A stretch of 24,000 nt of DNA from Idiomarina sp. PL1-037 (lineage in GTDB: Bacteria > Pseudomonadota > Gammaproteobacteria > Enterobacterales > Alteromonadaceae): positions 619,810 through 643,809 of the forward strand of contig NZ_CP139873.1 in the NCBI RefSeq assembly GCF_034422975.1, written 5' to 3'. Within the stretch, counting starts at the first letter, position 1, and each line of letters opens with the position of its first letter. Positions 3,013-21,116 of this stretch are shown piece by piece. A model generated the notes under the pieces. It was not told where the DNA came from and did no database searches. It saw nothing but the letters and a program-made list of their open reading frames with translations. The translations under genes and the position numbers were made by a program.

Positions 3013-3171
3013 ATGGCAAAAAACATTTTAAAGGCGAGCAAAACTCGTAAGGCTCGGTTCACGCCGAATATGAAAAACTTCGAGACAAGCCTAAGCTACG
3101 AAGGGTTGAAACTTAAAGAAGCGGATAGGTATCTGACTGTTGCTGAATTAAAGCAAAAGTATGCGAGATAA
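3013..3171 (+). CDS. Small Fic-inhibitory antitoxin-like protein (class I, VbhA/YhfG-like), 52 aa
   Basis: It is absent from the ORF track because it is under 60 aa. AGGAGG at 2999-3004 lies 8 nt before the ATG. The product is MAKNILKASKTRKARFTPNMKNFETSLSYEGLKLKEADRYLTVAELKQKYAR. It contains S-x-x-x-E-G (SLSYEG), the inhibitory-helix motif of Fic antitoxins. Its stop overlaps the ATG (3162) of the Fic remnant, a typical TA operon layout. Confidence 0.6.
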   Translation: MAKNILKASKTRKARFTPNMKNFETSLSYEGLKLKEADRYLTVAELKQKYAR

Positions 3172-3430
3172 GTACGGGGTAGCCAAGACAAAGATTGTTA
3201 CCCTAACTCAGGTGTTCTCAAGACACTTCTTGATATCCGAGAGCCAAGCGAGCTAGAAGAAGCTGAAGCCTCATTCAGTGTCGCTCGCGCCAAGGATTAT
3301 ATTGCGCTACATCTAACACTATCCGACTTCACGTTACCTCACCTTAAGCAGCTACATCATCACCTATTTCAAGACGTATACGAATGGGTGGGCGAATTGA
3401 GAGATGTTGATATTTCAAAAGGTACGACTG
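3162..3430 (+). pseudogene. Fic/DOC-family (filamentation induced by cAMP) toxin remnant, frameshifted and 3'-truncated
   Basis: ATG 3162 gives MRDKYGVAK. The Fic-like sequence then continues in the +1 frame: DKDCYPNSGVLKTLLDIREPSELEEAEASFSVARA...LPHLKQLHHHLFQDVYEWVGELRDVDISKG. This needs a frameshift near 3185-3196. Homology stops before the HxFx(D/E)GNGRxxR core motif, where IS256-derived DNA begins. Confidence 0.7.
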
Positions 3431-4313
3431 GACTTCCCAGCTTTCTATTCGAGACTGTAAAAGATTTTGTGTAAATGGCTGACTGCACTGTTAAATCCGA
3501 TCATGATATATGATCTCGAATTGCGCCATGGCCGGTTTCCAGTTGCGCATGGGCATCGTCCACTTTTTCGATGCCTGATGCAAGGCTAAGTACAATACCT
3601 TCATGATGGCCTCATCATTCGGGAACGACCGGCGAGTCTTGGTAATTTTACGCAATGACGCGTTCAGCGACTCGATGGCGTTAGTGGTGTAGATAGCCTT
3701 ACGTATCTCCGCCGGGTATTCGAAGAATACGCTTAAGCGTTCCCAGTTTGCCCGCCATGAGCGGCTTATGGTCGGATGCTCTTCACCCCATCTTTCAGCG
3801 AACTCTTCCAGCGCCTGCTCTGTTGCAGCGCCATAAATTAGCTTTAAGTCAGCTGCGATGATCTTGCGTTGCTTCCAGTTTACGTAACGCAGAGAGTGGC
3901 GAATTTGATGCACAATGCACAGCTGTACCTGAGTCTTCGGGTAAACCGCTTCAATGGCTTCGGGGAAACCCTTCAGGCCATCGCAACAGGCGATAAAGAT
4001 GTCATCGACGCCGCGATGTTTAAGCTCGTTCATCACAGATAACCAGAATTTAGCGCCTTCGGTTTGCGCCATCCACAGGCCAAGGAGCTCTTTTTCACCG
4101 TTGGTGCTACGAACGGCCTTCTTGGTTTTGCCGTTACGGGAATTGCCGCTGTTATTGCCAGCCGCATCATTTGGGGCGTAGCCTAAATGGGCTTGCATCT
4201 CGGCTTCTAAAGTGCGTTCAGCGACTTTCTTGGTAAGCTGCTTGAGCAGCCCAGCTTCACCTAAAATGTCTTCTGGCGAGTCACAGCCATCAAGCAGCTG
4301 ATCGATGAGTTTG
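3430..4313 (-). mobile_element. IS256-family insertion sequence remnant (one end retained, other end lost; boundaries approximate)
   Basis: It contains the decayed IS256-type transposase gene. The 3' flank (gagactgtaaaagattttgtgtaaa, about 3451-3475) resembles IS256-family terminal repeats and abuts the truncated fic gene. The 5' part of the transposase gene and the other inverted repeat are missing where the tandem-repeat array starts. Confidence 0.7.
3491..4312 (-). pseudogene. IS256-family transposase, N-terminally truncated with an internal ~130-aa deletion
   Basis: Typical IS256 transposase blocks are present: KLIDQLLDG...LKQLTKKVAERTLEAEMQAHLGY, NSRNGKTKK, KELLGLW...AKFWLSVMNELKHRGV, CIVHQIRHSLRY, IYTTNAIESLNASLRKITK and KKWTMPMRNW. 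The reading frame upstream of Met-4198 stays open and homologous to about 4312 but has no start codon. The sequence jumps from ...RSTNGE directly to KELLGLW (junction about 4092-4097), deleting the segment that carries the first DDE Asp. Confidence 0.8.
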
Positions 4314-4330
4314 TTTGATATTGGCCTTAT

Positions 4331-5325
4331 CTCCCACAGCTAGAGTGTGCTCTCACAAACTTGGGCTTTATTTTTTGTTAGCACTGCCTATTTTGCTCTC
4401 TATTCCTAGTCGGAGAGTAATATTCATGAAAAAGCGGCCCATGATTGGGCGCGTTAACAGGGTAAACCGGCCCTTCATTAGGAGAGAGCAACCGAAATCT
4501 GTCGTTATTTATCCGTTTTCCCAATGATGGGCCGTTATTCTGGCTATATTGATTGCAAGTAGCCCAATATTGGGAGCGTTAACAGGGTAAACCGGCCCTT
4601 CATTGGGAGAGAGCAATTGAAATCCGTCGTTATTTATCCGTTTTCCCGATGATGGGCCGTTATTCTGGCTATATTGATTGCAAGTAGCCCATCTGTGGGA
4701 GTAATTTACCTTTTCACTCCCACAGATGGGCCGCTTTATTCCACGGCTGGGTGTGCTCTCACAAATTTGGGCTTTATTTTATTGTTAGCAGTGCCTATTT
4801 TGCTCTCTATTCTTAGTCGGAGAGTAATATTCATGAAAAAGCGGCCCATGATTGGGCGCGTTAACAGGGTAAACCGGCCCTTCATTGGGAGAGAGCAACC
4901 GAAATCTGTCGTTATTTATCCGTTTTCCCAATGATGGGCCGTTATTCTGGCTATATTGATTGCAAGTAGCCCAATATTGGGAGTAATTTACCTTTTCACT
5001 CCCACAGATGGGCCGCTTTATTCCACGGCTGGGTGTGCTCTCACAAATTTGGGCTTTATTTTATTGTTAGCAGTGCCTATTTTGCTCTCTATTCTTAGTC
5101 GGAGAGTAATATTCATGAAAAAGCGGCCCATGATTGGGAGCGTTAACAGGGTAAACCGGCCCTTCATTGGGAGAGAGCAATTGAAATCCATCGTTATTTA
5201 TCCGTTTTCCCGATGATGGGCCGTTATTCTGGCTATATTGATTGCAAGTAGCCCAATATTGGGAGTAATTTACCTTTTCGCTCCCACAGATGGGCCGCTT
5301 TCTTCCACAGCTGGGGTGTGCTCTC
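4331..5325. repeat. Tandem array of a 282-bp unit: about 3 full copies, one 125-bp internally deleted copy and a partial terminal copy
   Basis: The CTCCCACAG unit starts at 4717, 4999 and 5281 are exactly 282 bp apart. Unit 1 (from 4331) lacks about 20 nt. The segment around 4528-4673 is a unit with an internal deletion between two ATTGGGAG motifs. Each unit carries about 5 copies of a palindromic CCCA-N4-TGGG motif. One unit has a perfect 15-bp hairpin (4687-4701 / 4717-4731). Confidence 0.95.
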
Positions 5326-5630
5326 TATGTAGCGTCAATAGCCTTGCCGTATTACTGGTACACCTAAAACTACTGAGCTGGTTTAAGCATTCACAAAAGG
5401 TTGAAGAAATCGGAACTCAGCTCTGCCGAAGAGTTATTTTCAACTTCATGATCTTAACTAAAAATTGCACCAAAAGTTGAGATAGTGACACAAAACCATA
5501 ACAATACAGCAATAGAGTGGTCATAGAAGATGTCATTATTTGATCACAATTTTGCAATTAAAAAATTATTAAATGTAATAATTTGCGTTTAATGTACGTT
5601 CCTGATTTTAATAAATTAAAGAAGGAACTT

Positions 5631-8072
5631 ATGACAAAAAATAACTTAACGATTGCTATCATGGCGGCAATGGGCCTGAGTGTCCCAGTTATGGCTTCTG
5701 CAGATGTGTTTATCTCAGAATTCATTGAAGGAAGCAGTAATAATAAAGCGATTGAGCTGTATAACAGTGGTGATACTGCAATTGACTTAAGCACATACAC
5801 ACTATCATTTTACTTCAACGGCAATACTGAATCCGGAAATGATATCAGCCTGTCCGATACCCTTGAACCACAAGCAACCTATGTTATTGCGAACAGCAAT
5901 GCAGTAAGTGCCATCACCGACAAAGGCCAGCTTTTAACTGGCGGGAGTTGGTACAATGGCGACGACGCTATTGTGTTAAGCCAAGAGGGCAACGTTGTTG
6001 ATAGTTTAGGGCAAATTGGCACCGATCCAGGTTCTTACTGGGAAAGCGACGGCGTGCGCACGCAAGATCGCACATTACGCCGTTTAAACAGCATCACGAG
6101 CGGTGACACGACAACGGATGATGCTTACGAGCCGCACACGCAATGGCAAAGTTTTGATAAAGACACCTTTGATGGCTTGGGTAGCCATTTAGATAGCAAT
6201 CCGGTTGAGCCTCCGCCAACATTAGCTATCGGTGAGTGTGGTGACAGCGCAACATTAATTTCTGCTGTGCAAGGCAACACCGACGAAAGCCCTTTGAAAG
6301 GTGAACAAGCGATTATCGAAGCTATCGTTACGGCAAGCTTCCAGGGCGATGAACAGTTAAGTGGATTTTTTGTACAACAGCCTGAAAGTCAGTACGACAA
6401 CGACCCGGCAACATCTGAGGGTGTTTTTGTATACCATAACGCTGATACGGTCAGTGTCGGCGACAAAGTACGTTTAGTTGCAGAAGTTGACGAGTATTAT
6501 GGCGCCACCCAACTGGCTACCGTTTCAGACTTTATTTTGTGTGATGAAGGCCTGTCGGTAACGCCAACAACGGTTGAACTCCCGGTTGAATCGCTGAATA
6601 ACTTAGAAGCCACCGAGGGCATGTTGGTTAGCTTACCGCAAGAGCTCACGGTGACGGAAAACTATGGTTTAGGTCGCTACGGCGAGTTTGTCGTCGCAAC
6701 AGGACGTCAATTTAATCCAACGCAAATTGCAGAGCCTGGTGAAGCGGCTCAGGCAGTGGCGGAAGCTAATCGCCTGTCACGTATATTGGTTGATGATGGC
6801 CGTACCGGTCAAAACCCAGAAATTGTCCCTTACCCTGCACCTGAGCTCAGTGCCATGAACAGCCTTCGCGTGGGTGATAGCGTAACGGGGATCACGGGGG
6901 TGATGACTTATGGTTTCTCAGCGTACCGGGTACATCCTACGGTTGCACCACAATTTATTGCCACTAATGCTCGTGATGAAGCGCCGGTCAAAGCAGAAGG
7001 TGCGACAGCGCGCGTCGCAAGCTTTAATGTTCTTAACTACTTTAATGGCGACGGCACTGGCGAAGGTTTCCCGACTGAACGTGGGGCAGACAGCTTAGTT
7101 GAGCTTGAGCGTCAACAGACGAAATTGGTTACTGCCTTAACGGAACTGGATGCTGACATCATCGGTTTAATCGAAATCGAGAACGATGGTTTTGGTGAGA
7201 ACAGCGCATTAGCAACCCTTACTAATGCGTTAAGTGATGCTTCGGGCAGCGAATGGCAATACGTCGACATGGGCGGAGACAACGTTGGCACAGACGCAAT
7301 CACGTCGGCCATTATTTATCGTACCGAGCAGTTCAGTGAAGTAGGCACACCGGCATACACAACCGCTGAACCTTTTGACTATGGTAACCGTGCTCCGGTA
7401 GCGCAAAGCTTTACCCACACCGAGAGTGACGAAGAATTCACATTTGTAGTGACACACCTTCGATCGAAAGGAAGTTGTGGTAGCGCCGAGGGCGATGACG
7501 TTGATAGCGGCGACGGCCAGGGTTGTTGGAATGCCACTCGAGTAACAGCAGCTAATGAGTTGCTGGCCTGGTTAGATGGCTATCCGACTGGTGTTGAAGA
7601 CAGTGATACTCTTATCTTGGGTGATATGAATGCCTACACCAAAGAAGATCCTATTGCTGTGTTCACTGATGCTGAGTACACCGATCTGAAAACCTCGATG
7701 ATGGGTGATGAGCACTACTCGTACATCTACCGTGGAGAATCTGGTAGCCTTGACCACGCCTTTGCCAGTGCGTCGTTGCAAGAAAAAGTTGCTGCTGTTG
7801 CAACTTGGGCAATCAATGCCGATGAACCTCCGGTGCTTGACTACAACCTCGAGTATCAATCAGAAACGCAACAGGCAAACTATTATGCGCCGGATGCCTA
7901 CCGCAGCTCCGATCACGATCCGGTCATCGTTGACCTGACATTCGAGGCGGAAGAGTCTGAAGGGCAACCAGAAGACGAGACACCAACAGTAGAAGAAGAC
8001 TCGTCGAGCAGTCACTTCAGTTGGTGGTTGTTGTTATTAGTACCGGCTCTGCGTTGGATGCGCCGCCGCTAA
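5631..8072 (+). CDS. Extracellular nuclease, ExeM/NucH/Xds type (lamin-tail domain + endonuclease/exonuclease/phosphatase domain) with C-terminal rhombosortase-type sorting tail
   Basis: I prefer ATG 5631, preceded by GAAGGA, over the TTG at 5583. It gives the signal peptide MTKNNLTIAIMAAMGLSVPVMASA|DV. The LTD signature is FISEFIEGSSNNKAIELYNSG. EEP motifs are RVASFNVLNYF, IGLIEIEND and SSDHDPVIVDL. The C-terminus is SSSSHFSWWLLLLVPALRWMRRR: a small-residue tract, a hydrophobic helix, then a basic tail. Confidence 0.85.
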   Translation: MTKNNLTIAIMAAMGLSVPVMASADVFISEFIEGSSNNKAIELYNSGDTAIDLSTYTLSFYFNGNTESGNDISLSDTLEPQATYVIANSNAVSAITDKGQLLTGGSWYNGDDAIVLSQEGNVVDSLGQIGTDPGSYWESDGVRTQDRTLRRLNSITSGDTTTDDAYEPHTQWQSFDKDTFDGLGSHLDSNPVEPPPTLAIGECGDSATLISAVQGNTDESPLKGEQAIIEAIVTASFQGDEQLSGFFVQQPESQYDNDPATSEGVFVYHNADTVSVGDKVRLVAEVDEYYGATQLATVSDFILCDEGLSVTPTTVELPVESLNNLEATEGMLVSLPQELTVTENYGLGRYGEFVVATGRQFNPTQIAEPGEAAQAVAEANRLSRILVDDGRTGQNPEIVPYPAPELSAMNSLRVGDSVTGITGVMTYGFSAYRVHPTVAPQFIATNARDEAPVKAEGATARVASFNVLNYFNGDGTGEGFPTERGADSLVELERQQTKLVTALTELDADIIGLIEIENDGFGENSALATLTNALSDASGSEWQYVDMGGDNVGTDAITSAIIYRTEQFSEVGTPAYTTAEPFDYGNRAPVAQSFTHTESDEEFTFVVTHLRSKGSCGSAEGDDVDSGDGQGCWNATRVTAANELLAWLDGYPTGVEDSDTLILGDMNAYTKEDPIAVFTDAEYTDLKTSMMGDEHYSYIYRGESGSLDHAFASASLQEKVAAVATWAINADEPPVLDYNLEYQSETQQANYYAPDAYRSSDHDPVIVDLTFEAEESEGQPEDETPTVEEDSSSSHFSWWLLLLVPALRWMRRR

Positions 8073-8094
8073 AACGATAACGTGTTAAGAAAAA

Positions 8095-8130
8095 GTCAGA
8101 GCGCTATAGGATGTGCTCTGGCTTTTTTTA
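8095..8130 (+). terminator. Rho-independent terminator of the nuclease gene
   Basis: The sequence gtcagagcgc-tataggat-gtgctctggc is followed by TTTTTTT, 23 nt after the stop. Confidence 0.75.
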
Positions 8131-8354: not shown

Positions 8355-8948
8355 CTACTTAATAACTTGCTGCTTGCTAAGCTGCGAATATAAAAGTGCC
8401 AATGACACGCCGCTGAGTGCCCCGCCCAAATGGCCCATCACCGCCACCCGGTCAACACTACTGAAACTTACGATCGGCTCTCCGATAAATGCCTCGATCA
8501 TCACCTTGCCAATCACCAGCAAGAGTAGCGTCCAGCCAAAAGGTTTACGCTTTAAAATATCTAACGTCGAACCCCAGGCAAAAAAACCATACAACGCGCC
8601 CGAAAAGCCGCGGTTCTCGACTACCGTTATAGCGTAAAACGGCGGTTGCGCAAACCAATGTTCAAATAATACCGAACCCAACGCTGTCGCCGCTAGCATC
8701 AGCCAAACCGGTGGCGGACTTAAATGCTCATCAAACAATAACCACATCACCAATAGGCCCACCAAACTGGCCAAGTAATGACTCAGCTCAAAATGAACCC
8801 ACCCGGCTGTTATAGCATCCCACCACTGGCCGTTGTCCCTCTGATAAGCCAAAAACCGGAGTGTCTCGTCCGGCAGTAGCATCAATACACTCAATAAAAG
8901 GGCAATGGGAAATAGTGTTAAAGGACCTTGTTTTATCTTTTCTCTCAC
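8355..8948 (-). CDS. rrtA: Rhombosortase (rhomboid-family intramembrane serine protease)
   Basis: This is a 197-aa polytopic membrane protein. It has LAYQRDNGQWWDAITAGWVHFELSH (a rhombosortase-like N-terminal block), GFSGALYG (the GxSG catalytic Ser) and MGHLGGALSG (the catalytic His helix). It is adjacent and convergent to a protein carrying a matching sorting tail. The start is GTG at 8948 with no obvious SD. Confidence 0.75.
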   Translation of the reverse strand: MREKIKQGPLTLFPIALLLSVLMLLPDETLRFLAYQRDNGQWWDAITAGWVHFELSHYLASLVGLLVMWLLFDEHLSPPPVWLMLAATALGSVLFEHWFAQPPFYAITVVENRGFSGALYGFFAWGSTLDILKRKPFGWTLLLLVIGKVMIEAFIGEPIVSFSSVDRVAVMGHLGGALSGVSLALLYSQLSKQQVIK

Positions 8949-8974: not shown

Positions 8975-9150
8975 AAACTTCGGTGACTGCTCCCCGCCCT
9001 GCCGGGCGAGGCCTCCAACTTCTTAGGCAGCAACCGGCGTGTGTCCGAATTTACGCAAGCCTCCATTGGCAGGAACCGACAGTCCTTCGGCTCTTAGTTT
9101 GATAATACCCTGCTGCCGAATATTGATCGCGGCGTTGATGTCGTGGTCAA
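8975..9150 (-). ncRNA. Putative omega-RNA (reRNA) scaffold of the TnpB element
   Basis: This is inferred from position only. In characterised TnpB systems the guide RNA scaffold overlaps the tnpB 3' end and the right-end hairpin. The guide would then read into the flank at 8950-8975, just upstream of rrtA. I did not model any structure or covariation. Confidence 0.3.
8981..9010 (-). repeat. IS200/IS605-type right-end hairpin, copy B (13 nt downstream of the tnpB stop)
   Basis: The minus strand reads CTCGCCCggcaGGGCGGGGAGCAGTCACCG, with a 7-bp stem including one G-U pair. It is the inverted partner of 8287-8316. Confidence 0.7.
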
Positions 9151-10204
9151 GCTCTGCTGTACAAGCCGGGCATGTCCACTTGCGCACCGACAACCGCAAA
9201 GAATCGGCCTTGTGGCCGCAGCATGAGCAGATCCTGGAGCTGGCAAACCATTGGTCGATCTTGACCAGATGTTTGCCATGCGCTTTAGCCTTGTACTCCG
9301 GCTTCTGAATCAGGCCGAACCAGCTTGCGTCAGCGATGTGCTTGGATAGCTTCCGGTTCTTCAGCAGGTTCTTCAGTTTCAATGTCTCGACCACCACCGC
9401 TTGGTTGTCGTCAATGAGTTGTCGGGACAGGTTGTGCTGGAAGTCAGTACGGTTATTCGCTAGGCGCTCATGCGCCTTAGCCAGTTTCAAGCGTGCTTTC
9501 GTACGACCTTTGCTGCCTTTCTGGCAACGGGATAAGACTTTCTGCTTGCGTCGTAAGTTAGACTGGGCGTGTTTCAGGAAACGGGGATTCGTCGTCTTGC
9601 TATCTTCGGAGTCGATAGCAAGATGGGTTAGCCCCATATTAATGCCCAGAACGGTATCAACGCTATGCAATGGGGCAGGTGTTTGCAAGCCGTCTTCGAC
9701 CAACAGCGAGGCGTAGTATTTCCCTGTTACCGTGCGCGATAGCGTTACGCTCTTGAGCTTTCCGCCCAATTCACGGTGAACTCGCGCCTTAATTGGTTTC
9801 ATCTTCGGCAATTTTTTCCAGTTTTCGCCAGCACTCACACTCATGCAGTGGTAGCTGGATTGTTTACCATGTTTGCGCTTAAACTTCGGATAACGAGCGG
9901 GAAGCTTCGGGTCAAAGAAGCTCTGGAAGGCTTTATCAAGGTTGATGCACGCTTGCTGGAGTGCAATCAAGTAAAAATTCTTTAGCCAATGGTACTTGCG
10001 GGATTTTTTCGCCACCGCCAACAGCGGCTTAAGGTCTTTTTTGGCCTTGAGCTTCAGGCCGTGGCGTTTGTACTGTGAGCTGATGATATGCAGCACCTTG
10101 TTATGCACGAACCGCATAGCACCGAACTGGCGGTTGAGAAACTCTGCCTGTTCAGGTGTCGGGTAGATGCGTACTTTTGTGACCGCTAACATTTCAGCGC
10201 TCAT
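9023..10204 (-). CDS. tnpB: IS200/IS605-family TnpB (OrfB) RNA-guided nuclease homologue with a RuvC-I Asp->Asn substitution
   Basis: The N-terminal block is VRIYPTPEQAEFLNRQFGAMRFVHNKVL. RuvC-II is AVVVETLKL. The zinc finger is CSCCGH...CPAC. RuvC-III is DHDINAAINI. RuvC-I reads LGINMGL instead of the near-universal GIDxG (AAT codon at 9638-9640). An alternative start is the Met at 10192. No Y1 tnpA gene is adjacent. Confidence 0.85.
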   Translation of the reverse strand: MSAEMLAVTKVRIYPTPEQAEFLNRQFGAMRFVHNKVLHIISSQYKRHGLKLKAKKDLKPLLAVAKKSRKYHWLKNFYLIALQQACINLDKAFQSFFDPKLPARYPKFKRKHGKQSSYHCMSVSAGENWKKLPKMKPIKARVHRELGGKLKSVTLSRTVTGKYYASLLVEDGLQTPAPLHSVDTVLGINMGLTHLAIDSEDSKTTNPRFLKHAQSNLRRKQKVLSRCQKGSKGRTKARLKLAKAHERLANNRTDFQHNLSRQLIDDNQAVVVETLKLKNLLKNRKLSKHIADASWFGLIQKPEYKAKAHGKHLVKIDQWFASSRICSCCGHKADSLRLSVRKWTCPACTAELDHDINAAINIRQQGIIKLRAEGLSVPANGGLRKFGHTPVAA

Positions 10205-10459: not shown

Positions 10460-10494
10460 GATCGGTGACAAATGAGAATTATTTGTCACCGATC
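10460..10494. repeat. Perfect 14-bp-arm palindrome (GATCGGTGACAAAT-gagaatt-ATTTGTCACCGATC)
   Basis: I read it directly from the sequence. It sits exactly at the truncation point of the IS3 transposase fragment. A related palindrome lies at 12146-12184. Confidence 0.85.
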
Positions 10495-10504
10495 TGTTAA
10501 ATTG

Positions 10505-10687
10505 GGTAAACTCACGCAGACCGCCTATATCGAACGGTTTAATCAGACGGCTCGGCATGAATGGCTGGATATGCATCTTTTTGACAGCATTGCTCATGCA
10601 CAATTATTAACCACCCAGTGGCTGGGGCAATACAATAGCGAGGCTTCGACTCGGCCATTGGCGGAAAACCGCCAGCACAGCTGCTAA
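10505..10687 (+). pseudogene. IS3-family transposase (OrfB) C-terminal fragment
   Basis: GKLTQTAYIERFNQTARHEWLDMHLFDSIAHAQLLTTQWLGQYNSE matches the conserved C-terminal ..NAYIERFN...EWL.....F.....A......W...YN.ERPH block of IS3 integrases. The whole catalytic core is absent and the tail is degenerate. Confidence 0.7.
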
Positions 10688-12512: not shown

Positions 12513-12793
12513 ATGGCCGATAACTTATTCCCGCGAAATACAAAACAAAATCTAATCGAAGCCATTGACGATACGCCGGTCGTATTAATACATGGTTTGC
12601 GGCAATGCGGAAAAACAACCCTTGTTAAGTTTGTCGGTGAATTACTCGGCTATACCTACATTACCTTTGATGACGAAAACCAGTTGGCTGCAACAAAAGC
12701 CGACCCTGTGGTGGCGTTGTATTTTATGATGGCGACCAGGTACTACCTTTTGGTGAAAAACTCTATGCCGTTCCAATATCTCACCTGATGTAA
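12513..12793 (+). pseudogene. DUF4143/COG1373-type AAA ATPase remnant (internal deletion + frame change)
   Basis: The N-terminus, with Walker A (VVLIHGLRQCGKTTL), is followed after about 70 aa by the family's C-terminal end in another frame (VVFYDGDQVLPFGEKLYAVPISHLM*, stop 12791-12793). Roughly 300 aa of a normal ~400-aa protein is missing. Confidence 0.6.
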
Positions 12794-12941
12794 CCCTTCT
12801 AAGAATCAGGCTGGCCACCGTAATTGTCGCTCAATACATTACCAGAGTTGTAATAACTAAAATATACAATATAAAAGTTGTTTTTATTTTATGAAGCGTA
12901 TAAGTTGAATCTAGGAATAAAAACAATTTTTGGATTGTGTT

Positions 12942-13226
12942 ATGAAGACATTAAATGAAATGAGCGAACTATTAGCCAGAGAGCGTAAGAAAAGAAAGTT
13001 GTCACAAAAAGACATGCGCATGCTTATTGGGATGTCACAGCAACAGTATCAACGAGTGGAGTCTGGGCAGGATTTAAAAGTCTCAACGCTATTGCGCATT
13101 CTTGCTGGCTTAAATCTGGAACTGTCGGTTGTAGATCCCTCAGAGATTGATGGCAAAAGTACAACTTCAGCGAACTCAGAGACAGAGAGTATTTGGGCTA
13201 GCAGACACAAGCAACTTGAGGACTAG
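12942..13226 (+). CDS. hipB: XRE-family HTH antitoxin/regulator (HipB-like)
   Basis: I prefer ATG 12942 over the TTG at 12930. The HTH is LSQKDMRMLIGMSQQQYQRVESGQDLKVSTLLRILAGLNLEL. It lies 5 nt upstream of the HipA-N-domain gene. Confidence 0.8.
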   Translation: MKTLNEMSELLARERKKRKLSQKDMRMLIGMSQQQYQRVESGQDLKVSTLLRILAGLNLELSVVDPSEIDGKSTTSANSETESIWASRHKQLED

Positions 13227-13231
13227 GAAAG

Positions 13232-13513
13232 ATGAAGACGAAACGCTCAGAGCTCGTCGAAGGCCTCAGTCTCAGTATTGATAACCAGGAAATTGGTGTC
13301 ATATCTCATTATTCGGGCGGTAAGAACATTTTAGCCTTTTCGCCTAATTATGTGGCGTTGCCTGCAGAGAAACGCAACACATTTACGATGTCGCAATTGG
13401 TTAATGAACGGGCTCTTCGTAAACCACTTATCAGTTCGCAACGTTTACCGCCGGTATTATCCAATCTTCTACCCGAAGGGGGCATTAAGACACTGGATGG
13501 CACAAGCGCTTAA
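13232..13513 (+). CDS. HipA N-terminal subdomain protein (HipS-like), 93 aa, or the 5' half of a frameshifted hipA
   Basis: AGGAAAG precedes the ATG. The protein contains the HipA N-domain pattern ending LPPVLSNLLPEG. The frame changes at a G5 run (13478-13482), after which only 9 more codons are read before the stop. Confidence 0.6.
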   Translation: MKTKRSELVEGLSLSIDNQEIGVISHYSGGKNILAFSPNYVALPAEKRNTFTMSQLVNERALRKPLISSQRLPPVLSNLLPEGGIKTLDGTSA

Positions 13514-14495
13514 AGTCCATCAAGACAATGAGTTCCCTTTAATGGCGCACATGGGCCGGGGTTTGCCCGGAGGTCTTATTGCATCACCGATAGTTGCAGG
13601 TCAGCTACCAGTTTGGGCGCTTGATCATCGTGAACAGGTCGAAGCTATACAAATTGACGTCGCCACCCAACAAAACAAGTTTTCCCTTGCCGGCGTACAA
13701 ATGAAATTCTCTTCAGTTCGTCACAAAGACGGCAGATTTAATATCGGCACTGATGCCAATGATGACAGCTGGATCATTAAAACACCATCCACTGTGCATC
13801 AGTTTGTGCCTTTTAATGAGTTCTCCGCTATGCGTCTGGCGGAGGCTGTAGGCGTTGATATTCCAGAGATAAAATTGGTTAAATTATCTAAACTGGATAA
13901 TCTACCAAATATTCAATTGCCGAACGAAGAATACGCATACGCAATCAAGCGATTTGATAGAGACAATGGGAAACGAGTGCACACTGAAGATTTTGCTCAA
14001 ATATTCCAGGTATACTCTCATGAGAAATATGAAAAATACAACTATGAACAGATTGCGGATGCGCTCTACTCCTACAGCCACCAAGGCTTAAAAGACGTCC
14101 AGCAACTGGCTAGGCGTATACTTGTGAATATATTACTTGCCAACGGTGATGCACATCTTAAGAACTGGTCGGTGATATATTCCAACCCTCAACGGCCCAT
14201 GTTATCTCCCGCGTATGACATAGTTTCAACAATACCTTACGTCAAAGGCGTGAGTGAATTCGCGTTAAATATGGCCAAAAACAAAAATTGGTATGACGTG
14301 AGCATGGCATCGTTCGAAATTTGGTCTAATCGTGTTGGTTTTCCGTGGCAGGCTGTCAAAGTACACATAACGGATACATTAGATAAAGCTCGGTCTGTTT
14401 GGCCTAAATTATTAACCGAATTGCCGATGCATCGAGAGCACAAGCAAGTGCTAAGACATCATTGGTCGAAACTGCATGAAGATTTTAGGCTGTGA
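13497..14495 (+). CDS. HipA-family Ser/Thr kinase core (HipT-like), 332 aa from ATG 13497
   Basis: The Gly-rich loop is KFSLAGVQMKFS. The catalytic motif is NGDAHLKNWSV. SPAYDIVST is also present. The ORF-track N-terminal extension from 13350 is out-of-frame reading through the HipS-like gene. Homology to HipA (ALRHW..) resumes right at the G5 run. Confidence 0.7.
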   Translation: MAQALKVHQDNEFPLMAHMGRGLPGGLIASPIVAGQLPVWALDHREQVEAIQIDVATQQNKFSLAGVQMKFSSVRHKDGRFNIGTDANDDSWIIKTPSTVHQFVPFNEFSAMRLAEAVGVDIPEIKLVKLSKLDNLPNIQLPNEEYAYAIKRFDRDNGKRVHTEDFAQIFQVYSHEKYEKYNYEQIADALYSYSHQGLKDVQQLARRILVNILLANGDAHLKNWSVIYSNPQRPMLSPAYDIVSTIPYVKGVSEFALNMAKNKNWYDVSMASFEIWSNRVGFPWQAVKVHITDTLDKARSVWPKLLTELPMHREHKQVLRHHWSKLHEDFRL

Positions 14496-14540
14496 ATCGG
14501 CATTTCTCTTTCTTGCGTAGCTGGTTAGTTCACCTGGCGC

Positions 14541-15854
14541 CTAACGCAAAGTCAGCTCCAATGCGCGACCGCGCTCACGAATACGGTCTGTTATGATCCC
14601 GTACATATCGTCGGGTAGTGGCGTTCGAAAGCCACTTTCGACCACCTTGAATAGCTTGCCGATGAGCTGTTTTAGTTGTTTTTCCACCAGAGCCTTCGGT
14701 AAGCCTACGTTCACCCCAAGCTGCACGAAGTCGCTTTGGGTATAAAAACCAAACTGCTCGTAAGCGTCACTGAAATAGCCGTCGTCTCCCTCTTCTGTTG
14801 CGAGAACGCCAATCGACGTGAAACAGGCGTGATCAAACATGGGATAGGGCGCTAAACTCAGTACGTCATAGATAGGGGTTAACATATCCATTGTTGAATC
14901 TTTTCCAGAGGGCTTGCGCATTAAGGAAAAATTCTTCAAGTGTAAATCATTGTTCGCAACAAGGTATGAAAAAACGACGTGTAAAAATAGGTTGAGCGTC
15001 ACCGCTTTACTGTTTCCTGCGGCCTCGCTTAGTCTTTTTAAAACGGTTTCATAACTTAATGCGTCGCTGTCCTTATGTTTTGGGTGGACGTCACATAATG
15101 ACGCGCCGTCCTCGACAAAGTATCGCTCACTCTTGCTGAGAATATCGAAACGCTTCGTCACATAAGCCAACTCTCCGTCTTCAAAGGGGACAAGGCCACA
15201 TTCAGCGGTTTTGAGTCCAACCTTATTGGCTAGGCTCATAACGAAAAACTCATTCTCGGGGCAATGCGGTACACCTTCCGGTGCAGGCTTTACAATGTAT
15301 TGTCCGCCGCGAGTCGTTGGCACGAGTTGATTACCTTCCAACTTCATCATCAGTTTGCGCTGCACGCCCGATATGGAATGACCGTTTGCATGATCGACTG
15401 CATAGTCATTGAATGATCGTGACGTGCCAACAATGCTGACGCCTTTGTCTTTCAAAATACTGGGCTTAGGAATTGGTATTTGAACAGAGCGCTGGCCTGG
15501 TAAATCGTCAACCTCACCGGCGACCACAGAAATAGAGCCAATTAGCTCTTCGCCGTTGGCGCACAACAAACCAAACTCATCGCTTTTATCAAGTCGTGCT
15601 TTTTGTGCTTGGTGGGTTCTTAACCATCCCTCTGAGAGCAAATTAGTAAAGAAGGGCGGTAGAGCATCAAACCCATACTGGGTCTTTGTAAGCGGAAGAT
15701 GATGACCAATTGGTGAGCCGTTTTCTAGGTAGTCTGCTGCATACGCAAATGCATATGACTCACGAGCAGATAAGTCGTGCGAAGCACGATATTCGGTGAG
15801 TATGCCCGCCTTCACACCATTGACGAATACGGTTGCGATACGATTAACGTGCAT
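14541..15854 (-). CDS. hipA: HipA-family toxin kinase (full length, about 437 aa)
   Basis: The N-terminus is MHVNRIATVFVNGVKAGIL. LPPFFTNLLSEGWLR, SISGVQRKLMM (Gly-rich loop), ANNDLHLKNFSL (catalytic) and TPIYDVLS are present. I prefer ATG 15854 over the TTG at 15908. It overlaps the upstream gene's stop by 11 nt. Confidence 0.85.
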   Translation of the reverse strand: MHVNRIATVFVNGVKAGILTEYRASHDLSARESYAFAYAADYLENGSPIGHHLPLTKTQYGFDALPPFFTNLLSEGWLRTHQAQKARLDKSDEFGLLCANGEELIGSISVVAGEVDDLPGQRSVQIPIPKPSILKDKGVSIVGTSRSFNDYAVDHANGHSISGVQRKLMMKLEGNQLVPTTRGGQYIVKPAPEGVPHCPENEFFVMSLANKVGLKTAECGLVPFEDGELAYVTKRFDILSKSERYFVEDGASLCDVHPKHKDSDALSYETVLKRLSEAAGNSKAVTLNLFLHVVFSYLVANNDLHLKNFSLMRKPSGKDSTMDMLTPIYDVLSLAPYPMFDHACFTSIGVLATEEGDDGYFSDAYEQFGFYTQSDFVQLGVNVGLPKALVEKQLKQLIGKLFKVVESGFRTPLPDDMYGIITDRIRERGRALELTLR

Positions 15855-16161
15855 CGGTGCGGCCAACATACAGTGTATAGTTACCAAACACAGCGATAAT
15901 GGACTCAATCGTTGAGCACTTCGCTGAGGCTGGCGAAGTAAATGCAGCGTAGAGTGTTGTTTTGCTGATCATCGCTAGGTCGCAAAAAGTGTCGATGGTA
16001 ATATCGTTTTCTTTCACGTATTGAGTCACACGCTCCTTTAGCTCTGCGAGTGGAAAAAGCTCTTTTTCTTCAAGCTCTTTTGCTTCTAGTCGCTCGATTT
16101 CACGCAAAAGCGCATTAACTTGCTGCTTTAACTCTGTGATGTGACTTTTCATGTGCTTCAC
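15844..16161 (-). CDS. Putative antitoxin/regulator of the second HipA (N-terminal coiled coil + C-terminal HTH), 105 aa
   Basis: It is translationally coupled upstream of hipA. LKQQVNALLREIERLEAKELEEKE is heptad-like. FCDLAMISKTTLYAAF...TIESIIAVFG resembles an HTH. It is not a standard short XRE HipB. Confidence 0.6.
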   Translation of the reverse strand: MKHMKSHITELKQQVNALLREIERLEAKELEEKELFPLAELKERVTQYVKENDITIDTFCDLAMISKTTLYAAFTSPASAKCSTIESIIAVFGNYTLYVGRTDAR

Positions 16162-16501
16162 CAGTGATAGTTCTTTTTACTGAACTTTTTAATATCTGAA
16201 TGACAATTTGTTTAATTTAGCATACTTTTATAAAGTTAATCACGCTTTAATGAACTTTTGGTGGAAAATATCTCAATTAAGTTTTCTATAGTGAACTTAT
16301 TATTTTTTCTTCTTTTGCTATCACACTACCGTTTGACCTAAACTTGTGATCAAAATAAATAACAACTTCAAACCTTGGCGGATCAACTACAGTCTTTGGT
16401 CACCAGTGACTGAGATGGGGATGTGACTCTCCCAAATTCCGACAAGCTCAAATTTACATCCGGTGCCGCTAGGTGTTGTAATTTATTAATTTTTTAGTTT
16501 A

Positions 16502-16531
16502 CACTAGGTTAATATCTTTATTAACCTAGTG
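16502..16531. promoter_or_regulatory. Perfect 13-bp inverted repeat (CACTAGGTTAATA-tctt-TATTAACCTAGTG), probable AbiEi operator
   Basis: It ends 8 nt upstream of the abiEi ATG. AbiEi antitoxins are known to autoregulate through inverted repeats in their promoter. Confidence 0.55.
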
Positions 16532-16539
16532 ATTACCAT

Positions 16540-17103
16540 ATGGGCGCGCATGAGCTTAGATTAAAGTTACATGAACTGCAAAAGTATACACGCCATGCGC
16601 TTTTATCAATGGCGCAATTCAGTATGATCATGCCGGAATACTCGAGCAGTGCATTGAAAGTACGCCTGAATTACCTTGTTAAAAGAGGCGTACTTCAAAA
16701 AGTTTGCCGCGGAGTCTGGGCATTCCCTGAAAGTCATTATTACCAATCAACCAGCATTTTACATTTACCGTACTTAGTACGTCCGTCGAGTATTAACTAT
16801 CTGAGTTTAGAGTCGGTGCTTAGCAAGTACAGTGTCATTAGTCAGCAGATGTTTGACTATATTACTGTAATGACAACAGGCAGGAGTGGCATTTTCAAGA
16901 CGTCATTTGGAACTCTTGAGCTTACCCATACGAAGCGAGATCCTATGGCAATACTAACCGAAACACATCCACTTGGTGATTACCCATTGAGAGAAGCAAT
17001 GGTAAAACGGGCTTACTCGGACTTGAAAAACGTGGGACGTAATGTTGAATTGGTTGATTTAGAAGCGCTACACGAGGCTCTTAATGAGCAAAGCTCTCTT
17101 TAG
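16540..17103 (+). CDS. abiEi: AbiEi-family antitoxin (type IV TA / abortive infection), 187 aa
   Basis: The N-terminal winged-helix block is SALKVRLNYLVKRGVLQKVCRGVWAF. It sits immediately upstream of, and overlaps, a DUF1814 nucleotidyltransferase gene. Confidence 0.7.
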   Translation: MGAHELRLKLHELQKYTRHALLSMAQFSMIMPEYSSSALKVRLNYLVKRGVLQKVCRGVWAFPESHYYQSTSILHLPYLVRPSSINYLSLESVLSKYSVISQQMFDYITVMTTGRSGIFKTSFGTLELTHTKRDPMAILTETHPLGDYPLREAMVKRAYSDLKNVGRNVELVDLEALHEALNEQSSL

Positions 17104-18010
17104 GATGGCAAATATGAACATTAAAGCACTCGCACAGATGATCTGCGCTGATTCGACCGAATTAGCCGGTCTTCAAACAACAGTTGAAAAAGAACTTCTC
17201 CATTACGAAGTACTGGCATCAATGGCAAAATCCGGCTTTCTAAAGCAACTTATCTTTCAGGGCGGAACATGTTTGCGCATGATGTATGGATCCAACCGTT
17301 TATCTGAGGACTTAGACTTTGTTGGCGGAACGAACTTTGACTTTGAGCAGTTATCTCACCTTCGTGATTGCTTGAAGGATGATCTCTCTGGACGTCACAA
17401 CTTGAAAGTGAATGTCTCAGAGCCTAATTACGATAAATTGACCGACCAAAACAGGATCCGAGTAAGACGCTGGAAAATCTCTATCGAGACCGAGCCGGAG
17501 AAAAAAAGCCTGCCGTGGCAAAAAGTAAAATTAGAAGTAGCAACCGTCCCTGCTCATACGAAAATCCTGCGCCCTCTGGTAAAAACGTATCCGAGTGTGC
17601 CAGACGGTTACACCAGTATTTTCATTAACTGTGAATCACTCGAAGAAATTGCTGCAGATAAGTTCGTTGCGCTAGCATTGCGGCGCACGATAAAAGCCCG
17701 CGATGTTTGGGATATTGGATGGTTGAATCAGAGAAAAATAAAAGTCGATGCTGAGTTAGTGTGTAAAAAGTTCAAAGATTACCAGGAAACGGGCGGCTTC
17801 AAAGCACTTGCTGAACGATTAACCCAATTGCCCTCGTATATCGGAAGCGGTGACTTTGAGCGAGAAATGCGGCGCTTCTTACATTCATCAACGATTGAGG
17901 GTAGCATCGAGCAAGATGGTTTTATGGATTATCTTATCGATACAGTGGCTAGTGCAGGCCAGAAATTGTTAAACGAGCAACGTGACGGACCGGCTAAATT
18001 TAGCATGTAG
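17084..18010 (+). CDS. abiEii: AbiEii/AbiGii-family nucleotidyltransferase toxin (DUF1814)
   Basis: LIFQGGTCLRMMYGSNRLSEDLDFV is the hallmark GGTxL..R.S.DLDF nucleotidyltransferase motif of the family. ADKFVAL is also present. Alternative in-frame starts are at 17105 and 17114. Confidence 0.8.
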   Translation: MSKALFRMANMNIKALAQMICADSTELAGLQTTVEKELLHYEVLASMAKSGFLKQLIFQGGTCLRMMYGSNRLSEDLDFVGGTNFDFEQLSHLRDCLKDDLSGRHNLKVNVSEPNYDKLTDQNRIRVRRWKISIETEPEKKSLPWQKVKLEVATVPAHTKILRPLVKTYPSVPDGYTSIFINCESLEEIAADKFVALALRRTIKARDVWDIGWLNQRKIKVDAELVCKKFKDYQETGGFKALAERLTQLPSYIGSGDFEREMRRFLHSSTIEGSIEQDGFMDYLIDTVASAGQKLLNEQRDGPAKFSM

Positions 18011-21112: not shown

Positions 21113-21116
21113 AACT

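What the first reader, a model, noticed from the sequence alone, without database searches (positions are those of the whole stretch)
4315..5330. About 1-kb array of 282-bp tandem repeats packed with CCCA-N4-TGGG palindromes and a repeated RBS-preceded 33-codon micro-ORF
SEEN: the units repeat with an exact 282-bp period (CTCCCACAG at 4717, 4999, 5281). One 125-bp derivative was created by deletion between two ATTGGGAG motifs, and the first and last units are degenerate. Each unit holds about five copies, in both orientations, of a 12-14-bp motif: GGCCCATGATTGGG, GGCCCTTCATTGGG, CCCAATGATGGGCC, CCCAATATTGGG/CCCATCTGTGGG and CCCACAGATGGGCC. These can form a perfect 15-bp hairpin (4687-4731) and a longer-range stem (GGCCCATGATTGGG ... 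CCCAATGATGGGCC, about 80 nt apart). Each full unit also carries GGAGAG-N8-ATG opening a 33-aa ORF, MKKRPMIGRVNRVNRPFIGREQPKSVVIYPFSQ (4426-4527, 4833-4934, 5115-5216). The copies differ by 5 nonsynonymous changes against 1 synonymous, which argues against a conserved peptide. The array starts exactly where the IS256 transposase gene is truncated and ends in the promoter region of the nuclease gene. INFERENCE: such a density of one dyad motif looks more like a protein-binding array (iterons or a centromere-like site from a degraded plasmid/ICE, or a regulator sink) or a structured repeat RNA than like coding DNA. I cannot place it in any known repeat family.
Basis: partly seen in the sequence, partly recalled or inferred. 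Interest (0 to 1): 0.7.

Follow-up and report, generated by a model that had tools for sequence, protein, structure and literature searches.

The report
Orphan tandem array of palindromic units
A 1-kb stretch of non-coding DNA in a salt-lake Idiomarina strain consists of one 282-bp hairpin-rich segment copied about four times in a row; it looks like locally amplified repeat DNA in a decaying mobile-element region, and I found no sign that it is a gene, a known RNA or a proven protein-binding site.

Summary
The array is real. It spans 4330-5325 with period 282 bp (TRF score 1419, 95% match) and contains a nested 125-bp period. A polar 16-nt unit, GGCCCAT-NN-TTGGGAG, occurs 19 times at up to 3 mismatches (0.54 expected), all inside the array. 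Because the array is one segment amplified, only about six unit copies are independent. Each 282-bp unit is a 182-nt compound imperfect palindrome plus a 100-nt A+T-rich linker. On the left, the array abuts a dead IS256 copy at its mutated start codon. On the right, it ends 205 bp before the conserved nuclease module.

I found no relatives. Searches covered Rfam, plasmids, phages, 5.8 billion proteins (both open frames), and two-unit pattern scans of 185,579 species genomes, JGI metagenomes and IMG/VR. About 38 kb of flanking genome holds no further unit. The source is Idiomarina sp. PL1-037, an ONT-only assembly.

Best reading (about 0.5): a strain-specific, non-coding amplification of a REP/REPIN-cluster-like palindromic segment, with only passive hairpin effects. 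A protein-binding array or a plus-strand structured RNA is not excluded. The micro-ORF shows no sign of purifying selection, and the peptide reading is unlikely. Interest is low to moderate.

The parts
4330..5325 (.). Whole tandem array, 996 bp: 3 x 282 + 125 + a 25-bp stub
   Evidence: TRF; direct-repeat families D1-D4; unit alignment A1
4330..4561 (+). Unit 1a (A-type variant). It is cut short at its fourth palindromic unit by the 157-bp deletion.
   Evidence: differs from U2 at 1 of 132 core positions but at 7 of 99 linker positions
4562..4736 (+). Unit 1b (B-type variant), the 3' 175 bp of an original second unit. The junction is GTAGCCCAATATTGGGAG|CGTTAAC.
   Evidence: shares the B-type variants GGGAGCG, CAATTGAAATCC and CCCGATGA with U3
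4737..5018 (+). Unit 2 (A type), a full 282 bp: 100-nt A+T-rich linker (4737-4837) plus the 182-nt compound palindrome (4838-5019)
   Evidence: core folds at -76.8 kcal/mol (z -6.2) on the plus strand and -70.6 (z -5.1) on the minus strand; the linker shows no excess folding (z -1.0 / 0.05)
5019..5300 (+). Unit 3 (B type), a full 282 bp, with core 5120-5301
   Evidence: linker identical to U2 (0/100), core differs at 7/182; core folds at -83.2 (z -7.3) plus strand against -71.2 minus strand
5301..5325 (+). Terminal 25-bp stub, the start of a further unit. It is the right copy of the bounding direct repeat.
   Evidence: D4
4843..4858 (+). Palindromic unit M1, GGCCCATGATTGGGCG. It forms the outer stem with M5 (23-nt arms, 83-87% complementary). 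Equivalent copies lie at 4436 and 5125.
   Evidence: (I1-I4)
4876..4891 (+). Unit M2, GGCCCTTCATTGGGAG. Copies at 4469, 4594 and 5158.
   Evidence: pairs with M3 (16-nt arms, 94% complementary, 35 nt apart; I18)
4925..4940 (-). Unit M3, GGCCCATCATTGGGAA on the minus strand. Copies at 4518, 4643 and 5207. It carries the TGA stop of the micro-ORF.
4968..4983 (+). Unit M4, AGCCCAATATTGGGAG, preceded by GT. Copies at 4561 and 5250. At 4686 it reads AGCCCATCTGTGGGAG, an exact mirror of M5.
4999..5014 (-). Unit M5, GGCCCATCTGTGGGAG on the minus strand. Copies at 4717 and 5281.
5040..5055 (-). Degenerate unit M0, AGCCCAAATTTGTGAG on the minus strand. Copies at 4352 and 4758. A further degenerate unit, TCCACGGCTGGG, lies at 4740 and 5022.
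4687..4731 (+). Perfect 16-bp hairpin with a 13-nt loop, present only in unit 1b
   Evidence: (I4)
4833..4934 (+). 33-codon micro-ORF with GGAGAG-N8-ATG. Copies at 4426-4527 and 5115-5216. Probably not a conserved gene.
   Evidence: 5 nonsynonymous: 1 synonymous; no homologue
3450..4330 (-). Dead IS256-family copy that abuts the array. The right inverted repeat is at ~3450-3480. There is an internal ~370-bp deletion, the start codon is ATG->AGG (4325-4327), and the 5' UTR and left inverted repeat are lost.
   Evidence: the Logan contig ends at 3479
5326..5530 (.). Unique 205-bp right flank. It resembles neither the unit (z 0.5-0.7) nor the related nuclease locus.

Best explanation
This is a strain-specific, non-coding tandem amplification (a bacterial macrosatellite) of one 282-bp segment.

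Shown:
- The segment is a 182-nt compound imperfect palindrome plus a 100-nt A+T-rich linker.
- The palindrome is built from five copies of a polar ~16-24-nt unit, [A-rich]-GGCCCAT-NN-TTGGGAG, in + + - + - orientation.
- The linker carries one to two more decayed units.
- The array sits in a defence/toxin-antitoxin island full of mobile-element debris in Idiomarina sp. PL1-037.

Inferred history:
- Unequal recombination between 25-bp direct repeats amplified the segment to an A-B-A-B set of four.
- A 157-bp deletion between two ATTGGGAG units then produced the 125-bp period.
- Template switching made one imperfect hairpin perfect (4687-4731).
- A further deletion fused the array to the start codon of a decaying IS256 copy.

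In kind, it resembles the tandemly repeated REP/REPIN (BIME-like) clusters of other gammaproteobacteria: selfish or neutral hairpin DNA rather than a gene or a dedicated binding platform.

Its most likely effect is passive (inference). Any transcript crossing it folds into very stable hairpins that can pause or terminate transcription or block 3' exonucleases. This would insulate the nuclease gene, which keeps its own conserved ~95-bp upstream region, from read-through. The DNA itself is a hotspot for slippage and deletion.
For: Array and unit statistics.

Units:
- All unit copies share an A-rich 5' flank and the asymmetric GG...AG ends, so they are paralogous polar elements rather than a symmetric operator.
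- Inverted doublets form long stems: M2/M3 94% over 16 nt, M1/M5 83-87% over 23 nt, and M4/M5 up to 16/16.

Folding: the core folds far better than shuffles on both strands (z -5 to -7), as expected for a DNA-level palindrome. The linker does not.

Recombination history:
- A/B alternation supports the deletion history.
- Divergence is mosaic: U2 against U3 is 0/100 in the linker and 7/182 in the core; U1a against U2 is 7/99 and 1/132.

Against a coding role: the two nearly open frames have no homologues, and the micro-ORF shows 5:1 nonsynonymous:synonymous changes.

No catalogued match: no Rfam family at gathering score, and only chance miRNA-like hairpin hits at E>0.1. No sigma-70-like promoter inside the array. 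No plasmid or phage match.

Not a conserved regulator of the nuclease: in a TARA scaffold whose nuclease is 92% identical, DNA homology covers only 5531-8129, and a WYL gene sits upstream instead.

Context: dead IS256, fic fragment, TnpB, rve fragment, HipBA x2, AbiE, RelBE/ParE, Wadjet-like operon.

Precedent: ordered tandem repeats of near-identical REPINs, flanks included, of up to >700 bp are described in P. fluorescens SBW25 (PMC3116915).

Assembly: the source is an ONT-only Flye assembly at 61x with read N50 16.7 kb, so reads span the array (PMC11320950). An independent k-mer assembly of the same reads branches 30 nt before the last unit-specific base (contig starts at window 5250).
Against: - No unit copy was found outside the array. 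About 38 kb of the same chromosome holds none. The two-unit pattern found only chance hits in 185,579 species genomes, JGI metagenomes and IMG/VR. Dispersal, the hallmark of REP/REPIN families, is therefore not shown.
- No RAYT gene lies in reach.
- The plus strand folds 6-13 kcal/mol better than the minus strand in all three cores and has more G.U pairs (4-8 against 2-4).
- The two stem substitutions between the A and B types keep pairing only as G.U on the plus strand. Two more improve the outer stem in unit 3 (and my reading of the sequence). This hints at selection on a plus-strand RNA or ssDNA fold, though with only a handful of events.
- A strong Shine-Dalgarno sequence plus ATG is intact in all three copies.
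- The passive terminator/insulator effect is inference only.
Confidence: 0.5

Rival explanations
1. Protein-binding array: the 16-nt units are operators for a DNA-binding protein. The array would be the remains of a plasmid or ICE centromere, an iteron origin or a regulator sink, and amplification multiplied the sites.
For: - The stem half-sites GCCCA/TGGG are conserved while the central 4 nt vary (TGAT, TCAT, ATAT, TCTG, AATT), as expected for a spacer between half-sites.
- Six sites lie within about 230 bp, next to an A+T-rich stretch.
- The setting is a mobile-element island.
- F-plasmid sopC is a tandem array of units that each hold a small inverted repeat (my own knowledge).
Against: - The units are polar and in mixed orientation, with irregular 31-49-bp spacing.
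- No rep, par or partner regulator gene lies next to the array.
- The array holds no DnaA box, IHF consensus or GATC.
- No similarity to any of 72,556 plasmids.
- The high site count is a by-product of a recent duplication at 95-98% identity.
- The conserved stems are equally well explained by hairpin formation.
Confidence: 0.12
2. Structured RNA: each unit encodes a ~185-nt plus-strand RNA (4838-5019 and its copies). Its 5' and 3' ends pair in a GC-rich stem followed by UUUAUU. It would be a multicopy sRNA or cis-acting RNA element, possibly one that controls the micro-ORF.
For: - The plus strand is more stable than the minus strand in all three cores (-76.8/-70.6, -83.2/-71.2, -80.0/-67.2 kcal/mol) and has more G.U pairs.
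- A/B substitutions in stems keep or improve plus-strand pairing.
- Hairpin-plus-T-run sites are enriched: 6 found against 1.8 expected.
- A weak TAATAT box (4825-4830) would place a transcription start at the first base of the core (my reading).
Against: - No promoter-like site passes the scan inside the array.
- No Rfam family matches.
- No homologue exists anywhere, so there is no covariation test.
- The stems are made of paralogous repeat units, so pairing follows from their orientation alone.
- The minus strand also folds at z -5 to -6.
- The strand asymmetry rests on a few mismatches.
Confidence: 0.15
3. A genuinely mobile REPIN/MITE family: the 182-nt core, with 23-nt terminal inverted repeats, is a non-autonomous transposable element. 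It would be dispersed elsewhere in the PL1-037 chromosome and mobilised by a RAYT or another transposase. The array is then one of its clusters.
For: - Terminal inverted repeats AAAGCGGCCCATGATTGGGAGCG / CGCTCCCACAGATGGGCCGCTTT (I1).
- REPIN-like doublets.
- One unit starts with GTAG, the REP head motif (my own knowledge of Nunvar et al. 2010).
- Tandem REPIN clusters are known.
Against: - No copies in ~38 kb of flanking genome.
- No related doublet in any GTDB species representative, including other Idiomarina.
- No target-site duplication around the core.
- The adjacent IS256 has unrelated ends.
- No RAYT or TnpA gene is in reach. The only IS200/IS605-type gene is a lone TnpB whose flanks lack the unit.
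Confidence: 0.15
4. Small-protein gene array: the Shine-Dalgarno-preceded 33-codon ORF, or a longer 55-codon TTG-started form with a hydrophobic N-terminus, encodes a peptide. The peptide could be toxin-like, as in tandemly repeated type I toxin-antitoxin loci.
For: - GGAGAG-N8-ATG is intact in all three copies.
- The period of 282 = 94 codons keeps the frame, with only one stop per unit in that frame.
- Type I loci are often tandemly duplicated (my own knowledge).
Against: - 5 nonsynonymous against 1 synonymous changes.
- The peptide is basic and hydrophilic, not a membrane toxin.
- No homologue in 5.8 billion proteins.
- No promoter or antisense promoter is predicted.
- One nearly open frame out of six at 45% GC is not unusual.
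Confidence: 0.04
5. Assembly artefact of an ONT-only assembly, with a mis-expanded or mis-collapsed repeat.
For: The genome was assembled from Nanopore reads alone with Flye, with no short-read polishing.
Against: - Read N50 is 16.7 kb at 61x, so reads span a 1-kb array many times over.
- The units carry consistent A/B substitution haplotypes rather than homopolymer noise.
- An independent k-mer assembly of the reads branches exactly at the last unit-specific base.
Confidence: 0.03

Closest known systems
Tandemly repeated REPIN clusters / BIMEs (REP elements of Pseudomonas and enterobacteria; Bertels & Rainey 2011, PMC3116915)
   Same: - Short polar palindromic units in extragenic DNA.
- Units arranged as inverted doublets that form hairpins.
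- Doublets plus their flanks repeated head-to-tail as near-identical modules of a few hundred bp (up to >700 bp in SBW25).
- No coding capacity.
   Different: - No dispersed copies were found, and no RAYT gene is in reach.
- The self-complementary part of each unit is only 4 bp (CCCA/TGGG), so hairpins need two units.
- Five to seven units per module, rather than one doublet.
- The sequence family is unknown elsewhere.
MITEs with terminal inverted repeats (e.g. Correia/NEMIS, ERIC, RUP)
   Same: A 182-nt core bounded by 23-nt imperfect inverted repeats, strongly folding and non-coding.
   Different: - No target-site duplication and no second copy outside the array.
- No parent IS with matching ends.
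- Internal structure is made of repeated sub-units.
Plasmid centromere and iteron arrays (F sopC 12 x 43 bp, P1/R1 par sites, iteron origins)
   Same: Tandem units that each contain a small dyad, an A+T-rich neighbouring stretch, and a setting among mobile DNA.
   Different: - Period 282 bp with mixed-orientation sites at irregular spacing.
- No adjacent par or rep genes and no DnaA boxes.
- No plasmid homologue.
- The array is a recent duplication rather than a conserved design.
Tandemly duplicated type I toxin-antitoxin loci (ldr, ibs/sib, zor/orz)
   Same: Repeated units of a few hundred bp, each with a Shine-Dalgarno-preceded small ORF inside a highly structured region.
   Different: - The peptide is not hydrophobic.
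- No antisense RNA signals and no sign of purifying selection.
- No Rfam or protein match.

Membership tests
REP / REPIN (RAYT-mobilised) | Short (~20-60 nt) imperfect palindromic unit with a conserved core and polarity | tested here: inconclusive
   The polar unit [A-rich]-GGCCCAT-NN-TTGGGAG is conserved in 5-6 paralogous copies. Its own dyad is only 4 bp, and only M4 carries the GTAG head.
REP / REPIN (RAYT-mobilised) | Two units in inverted orientation forming a hairpin (a REPIN doublet) | tested here: met
   M2/M3 has 16-nt arms, 94% complementary, 35 nt apart. M4/M5 has 14-21-nt arms, 13-17 nt apart.
REP / REPIN (RAYT-mobilised) | Tens to hundreds of copies dispersed in extragenic space of the genome | tested here: inconclusive
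   No copies outside the array in ~38 kb of the same chromosome, where a typical REP density of 1 per 6-8 kb would give about 5. The doublet pattern is absent from 185,579 species genomes. Only ~1.4% of the 2.8-Mb genome could be read.
REP / REPIN (RAYT-mobilised) | Cognate RAYT (Y1 transposase) gene in the genome, often next to a cluster | not testable with these tools
   None in the window or flanks.
MITE | Terminal inverted repeats | tested here: met
   23-nt arms, 83-87% complementary, bounding the 182-nt core (I1-I4).
MITE | Target-site duplication and multiple dispersed insertions | tested here: not met
   The core's flanks (..TCATGAA | core | ATTCCAC..) share no direct repeat. No other copy was found.
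MITE | Ends matching an autonomous IS | tested here: not met
   The adjacent IS256 inverted repeat (GAGACTGTAAAAGATTTTGTGTAAATGG) and the reference left end are unrelated to the core ends.
Plasmid iterons / centromere (sopC- or parC-like) | Same-orientation, regularly spaced binding repeats | tested here: not met
   Orientation is - + + - + -, with start-to-start spacing of 33, 49, 43 and 31 bp.
Plasmid iterons / centromere (sopC- or parC-like) | Adjacent rep or par gene; DnaA boxes or IHF site for origins | tested here: not met
   No Rep, ParA or ParB domain in the window's ORFs. No DnaA box or IHF consensus in the array.
Integron attC / gene cassettes | R''(RYYYAAC) and R'(GTTRRRY) core sites bounding an imperfect palindrome; an integron integrase nearby | tested here: not met
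   No GTTRRRY or RYYYAAC on either strand of 4330-5325. No integrase among the window's ORFs.
Any Rfam RNA family | Covariance-model score at or above the gathering threshold | tested here: not met
   No hits at gathering score in the window. The best sub-threshold hit is an animal miRNA model at 23 bits against an 88-bit threshold.
Type I toxin-antitoxin | Small hydrophobic toxin ORF under purifying selection, with an overlapping antisense RNA | tested here: not met
   The peptide MKKRPMIGRVNRVNRPFIGREQPKSVVIYPFSQ is basic and hydrophilic. Changes run 5:1 nonsynonymous:synonymous. No promoter is predicted on either strand.

The most novel reading that the evidence does not exclude
The 182-nt compound palindrome is a previously undescribed functional element confined to this Idiomarina lineage. 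It could be a plus-strand structured RNA made from each unit, or a hairpin-forming ssDNA/dsDNA recognition module for an unknown protein. In that case the amplification matters for dosage, for example as a multicopy sRNA or decoy inside a defence island.
Probability: 0.12. Interest if true: 0.5.

Novelty: new member of a known kind. Interest (0 to 1): 0.25.

Why it matters
The value is mostly technical. It shows that a striking 'motif-dense' array reduces to one recently amplified 282-bp palindromic segment, so the apparent density is not evidence of a binding platform.

It also records a small natural history of repeat instability: amplification, a deletion between two 8-bp identical unit ends (ATTGGGAG), quasi-palindrome correction, and fusion to a dead IS.

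If the unit proved to be dispersed with a RAYT gene, it would add a REPIN family in Idiomarina. If it proved to be transcribed or bound by a protein, it would be a lineage-restricted regulatory element inside a defence island. Neither possibility is supported yet.

Tried and rejected
Searches that found nothing:
- Rfam at gathering and at E<=10: nothing but chance hairpin hits.
- blastn (word 11) of two units against 72,556 plasmids and 50,697 phages: no match. The right flank against plasmids: no match.
- Protein-space detour, to catch repeat copies that gene callers had translated: the plus-frame 86-aa ORF gave no hit in 5.8 billion proteins. The minus-frame 91 aa against 1.84 billion representatives gave one spurious low-complexity hit, P0121.
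- Two-unit pattern GGCCCNNNNTTGGGAG-N28-44-TCCCNNNNNTGGGCC, which matches the window 3 times. In GTDB genomes it hit one unrelated Actinomycetota site. In JGI metagenomes it hit one unrelated hairpin, L003. In IMG/VR it hit nothing.
- Two more patterns against IMG/VR: none, and one probably coincidental 36-bp duplication, L010.
- Literature search for the motif strings: nothing. The search did identify the source strain through the SRA run number.

Ideas tested and dropped:
- The unit derives from the IS256 end. Rejected: the ends are unrelated.
- The flanks are decayed units. Rejected: local alignment z is 0.5-0.7.
- The unit is copied from elsewhere in the window. Rejected: only 9-14-nt chance matches.
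- The array is a conserved regulator of the nuclease. Rejected: the related locus L004 lacks it.
- attC, dif-like, sigma-54 and DnaA/IHF readings. Rejected by pattern or by eye.
- A GGGAG microhomology at the IS junction. Dropped after base-by-base comparison showed at most about 3-4 ambiguous bases.

Failed look-ups: two encoding-contig look-ups failed because the gene starts differ.
Full report
**Observation**

Tandem Repeats Finder reports a 282-bp period over 4562-5325 (2.7 copies, 95% matches, no indels, score 1419). It also reports a 125-bp period over 4437-4691. Gap-free repeat finding gives start-to-start spacings of 125, 282 and 282, and a 25-nt direct repeat at 4330-4354 and 5301-5325 that marks the two ends. 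The array is therefore 4330-5325, or 996 bp = 3 x 282 + 125 + 25.

This covers CTCCCACAG at 4717, 4999 and 5281, the micro-ORFs at 4426-4527, 4833-4934 and 5115-5216, and GGAGAG-N8-ATG. The hairpin at 4687-4731 is a perfect 16-bp stem, not 15 bp.

The 16-nt pattern GGCCCATSWTTGGGAG has 19 hits at up to 3 mismatches against 0.54 expected, and every hit lies inside the array.

**Anatomy**

Aligning the units and all motif copies with their flanks shows the following.
- Each 282-bp unit holds five good copies of a polar element, [A-rich]-(G/A)GCCCA-NNNN-TGGGAG, in + + - + - orientation (M1-M5).
- Each unit also holds one to two decayed copies: M0 (CTCACAAATTTGGGCT) and TCCACGGCTGGG.
- The stems GCCCA/TGGG are conserved, the central four bases vary, and the GG...AG ends are asymmetric. 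The element is therefore not a true dyad.
- M1-M5 together form a 182-nt compound imperfect palindrome (for example 4838-5019). Its stems are an outer M1:M5 stem (23-nt arms, 83-87% complementary), an inner M2:M3 stem (16 nt, 94%) and an M4:M5 alternative.
- The core folds far better than dinucleotide shuffles on both strands (z -5.1 to -7.5). The 100-nt A+T-rich linker does not (z -1.0 and 0.05).
- The plus strand is 6-13 kcal/mol more stable in all three cores and has more G.U pairs (4-8 against 2-4).

**History written in the copies**

Variant positions alternate A (U1a), B (U1b), A (U2), B (U3). The junction GTAGCCCAATATTGGGAG|CGTTAAC is what a 157-bp deletion between the ATTGGGAG of one unit's M4 and the next unit's M1 would leave.

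Divergence is mosaic, which indicates recombination or conversion among units:

| Comparison | Linker differences | Core differences |
|---|---|---|
| U2 vs U3 | 0/100 | 7/182 |
| U1a vs U2 | 7/99 | 1/132 |

In U1b the M4 loop has become the exact mirror of M5, creating the perfect hairpin. This is the signature of quasi-palindrome template switching (inference).

**Flanks**

On the left is a dead IS256-family copy.
- Compared with a 403-aa reference transposase, it lacks residues ~82-176.
- Its start codon reads AGG.
- The ~70-bp 5' UTR and left inverted repeat are gone.
- DNA homology stops at 4328-4334, exactly at the array.
- The IS itself interrupts a fic-like gene.

On the right, 205 bp (5326-5530) resemble neither the unit, nor plasmids, nor the related nuclease locus.

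A TARA scaffold encodes a nuclease that is 92% identical. Its DNA aligns only to 5531-8129, and a WYL gene sits upstream there instead. The array is therefore not a conserved part of the nuclease's control region. The nuclease keeps about 95 bp of conserved upstream sequence.

**Source and reliability**

The SRA run that carries the identical nuclease contig belongs to Idiomarina sp. PL1-037 (CP139873). This is a Flye assembly of Nanopore reads only, at 61x with read N50 16.7 kb. The upstream protease is 100% identical to that strain's annotated protein.

Reads of that length span the array. A k-mer assembly of the same reads breaks 30 nt before the last unit-specific base (window 5250) and at the IS end (3479), as expected for true repeats.

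**Search for relatives**

I found none.
- Rfam gave nothing at gathering score, and only animal-miRNA-type hairpin noise at E>0.1.
- Plasmids and phages gave no blastn match.
- Translations of the two nearly open frames have no homologue in 5.8 billion or 1.84 billion proteins. The single hit is a low-complexity repeat protein.
- A two-unit pattern that matches the window three times found only unrelated sequences in 185,579 species genomes, JGI metagenomes and IMG/VR.
- About 38 kb of the same chromosome around the array holds no further unit.

**What it is not**

- The array has no attC core sites, DnaA boxes, IHF consensus or GATC.
- No rep, par or integrase gene lies in the window.
- No sigma-70-like promoter passes the scan inside the array.
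- No tRNA is present.
- The micro-ORF copies differ by 5 nonsynonymous codon changes against 1 synonymous, and the peptide is basic rather than membrane-like.
- One nearly open frame in six at 45% GC is not remarkable.

**Interpretation**

The most economical reading (about 0.5) is a strain-specific, non-coding amplification of a palindromic-unit cluster. The cluster lies in a defence/toxin-antitoxin island that is full of mobile-element debris: IS256 remnant, fic fragment, TnpB, rve fragment, two HipBA loci, AbiE, a RelBE/ParE-type pair, and a Wadjet-like operon with BrxR.

In organisation it is closest to the ordered tandem REPIN clusters of Pseudomonas fluorescens SBW25. There, near-identical REP doublets plus their flanks are repeated head to tail over up to >700 bp (PMC3116915).

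I do not file it as a REP/REPIN family member. Dispersal was not found in the DNA I could reach, and a RAYT gene could not be looked for.

Any function is most likely passive (inference). Hairpins would stall or end transcripts crossing from the fic/IS side towards the nuclease, and the DNA would be unstable.

Rivals, with my confidence in each:
- A plus-strand structured RNA (0.15). The strand asymmetry, and four stem substitutions that keep or improve plus-strand pairing, are hints. The counts are tiny and no promoter is predicted.
- A truly mobile REPIN/MITE family (0.15).
- A protein-binding array (0.12).
- A peptide gene (0.04).
- An assembly artefact (0.03).

**Verdict**

The motif-density argument for a binding array is weakened by the amplification, and the REP/REPIN-cluster comparison fits better. 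Interest is low to moderate (0.25).

Noticed in passing
window 3450-4330 (-): An IS256-family copy that is dead three times over: an internal ~370-bp deletion (reference residues ~82-176), start codon ATG->AGG, and loss of the 5' UTR and left inverted repeat. The right inverted repeat at ~3450-3480 is intact, and the IS is multicopy in the genome (the k-mer assembly breaks at 3479).
   Followed up: yes
window 3013-3450 (+): A 52-aa ORF (3013-3171) followed by the N-terminal part of a fic/doc-like gene (..LKQLHHHLFQDVYEWVGELRDVDISKG..), cut off by the IS256 insertion. It looks like a disrupted toxin-antitoxin pair. The fic assignment is from reading the translation only.
   Followed up: partly
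window 5531-8129 (+); L004 9895-12511: The ExeM/NucH nuclease gene, with its ~95-bp upstream region, forms a discrete 2.6-kb block. It is 88% identical in DNA to a TARA ocean scaffold where both flanks differ. The nearest named homologues are only 58% identical (Planctobacterium). The gene looks horizontally mobile, and in both genomes it sits near Wadjet/BrxR genes.
   Followed up: partly
window 8355-8948 (-) and the nuclease C-terminus (~8000-8072): A rhomboid-family (rhombosortase-like) gene lies next to the nuclease. The nuclease ends in a hydrophobic-plus-basic tail (..SHFSWWLLLLVPALRWMRRR), which suggests a GlyGly-CTERM/rhombosortase sorting pair. This rests on my own knowledge of the system.
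   Followed up: no
window 9023-10204 (-): A lone TnpB (IS605 OrfB / Cas12f-like TNB domains) without a TnpA gene. No HEARO/omega-RNA family reached the Rfam gathering score anywhere in the window. An rve_3 fragment lies at 10472-10687.
   Followed up: no
window 12513-18874: A dense run of toxin-antitoxin modules: HipB-like plus a split HipA (12930-14495, +), a second HipA with its partner (14541-16161, -), AbiEi/AbiEii (16540-18010) and a RelE/ParE-type pair (18300-18874, -).
   Followed up: partly
window 19087-24000 (-) and beyond (L011 2845-9504): A Wadjet-like operon: MksE-domain protein (199 aa), a 479-aa protein, a 978-aa SMC/JetC-like ATPase and a JetD_C protein, followed by a BrxR/WYL regulator. 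PADLOC scores are weak (E ~1e-4 to JetC/LmuB), so it may be a divergent variant.
   Followed up: partly
L010 1083-1134 (-), IMG/VR UViG_3300043179_000050: A GC-rich viral contig has two 36-bp tandem copies, each containing GGCCCACCATTGGGAG (the same 12 fixed bases as the unit). They lie just upstream of a DNA-methylase-like ORF. This is probably coincidence.
   Followed up: partly
L009 4344-8726 (window about -6400 to -2000): Upstream of the strain-specific S8 protease lies a dynamin-like GTPase / YjcZ / patatin gene cluster. The protease's next-best homologue is only 46% identical, so the variable island may extend further left.
   Followed up: no
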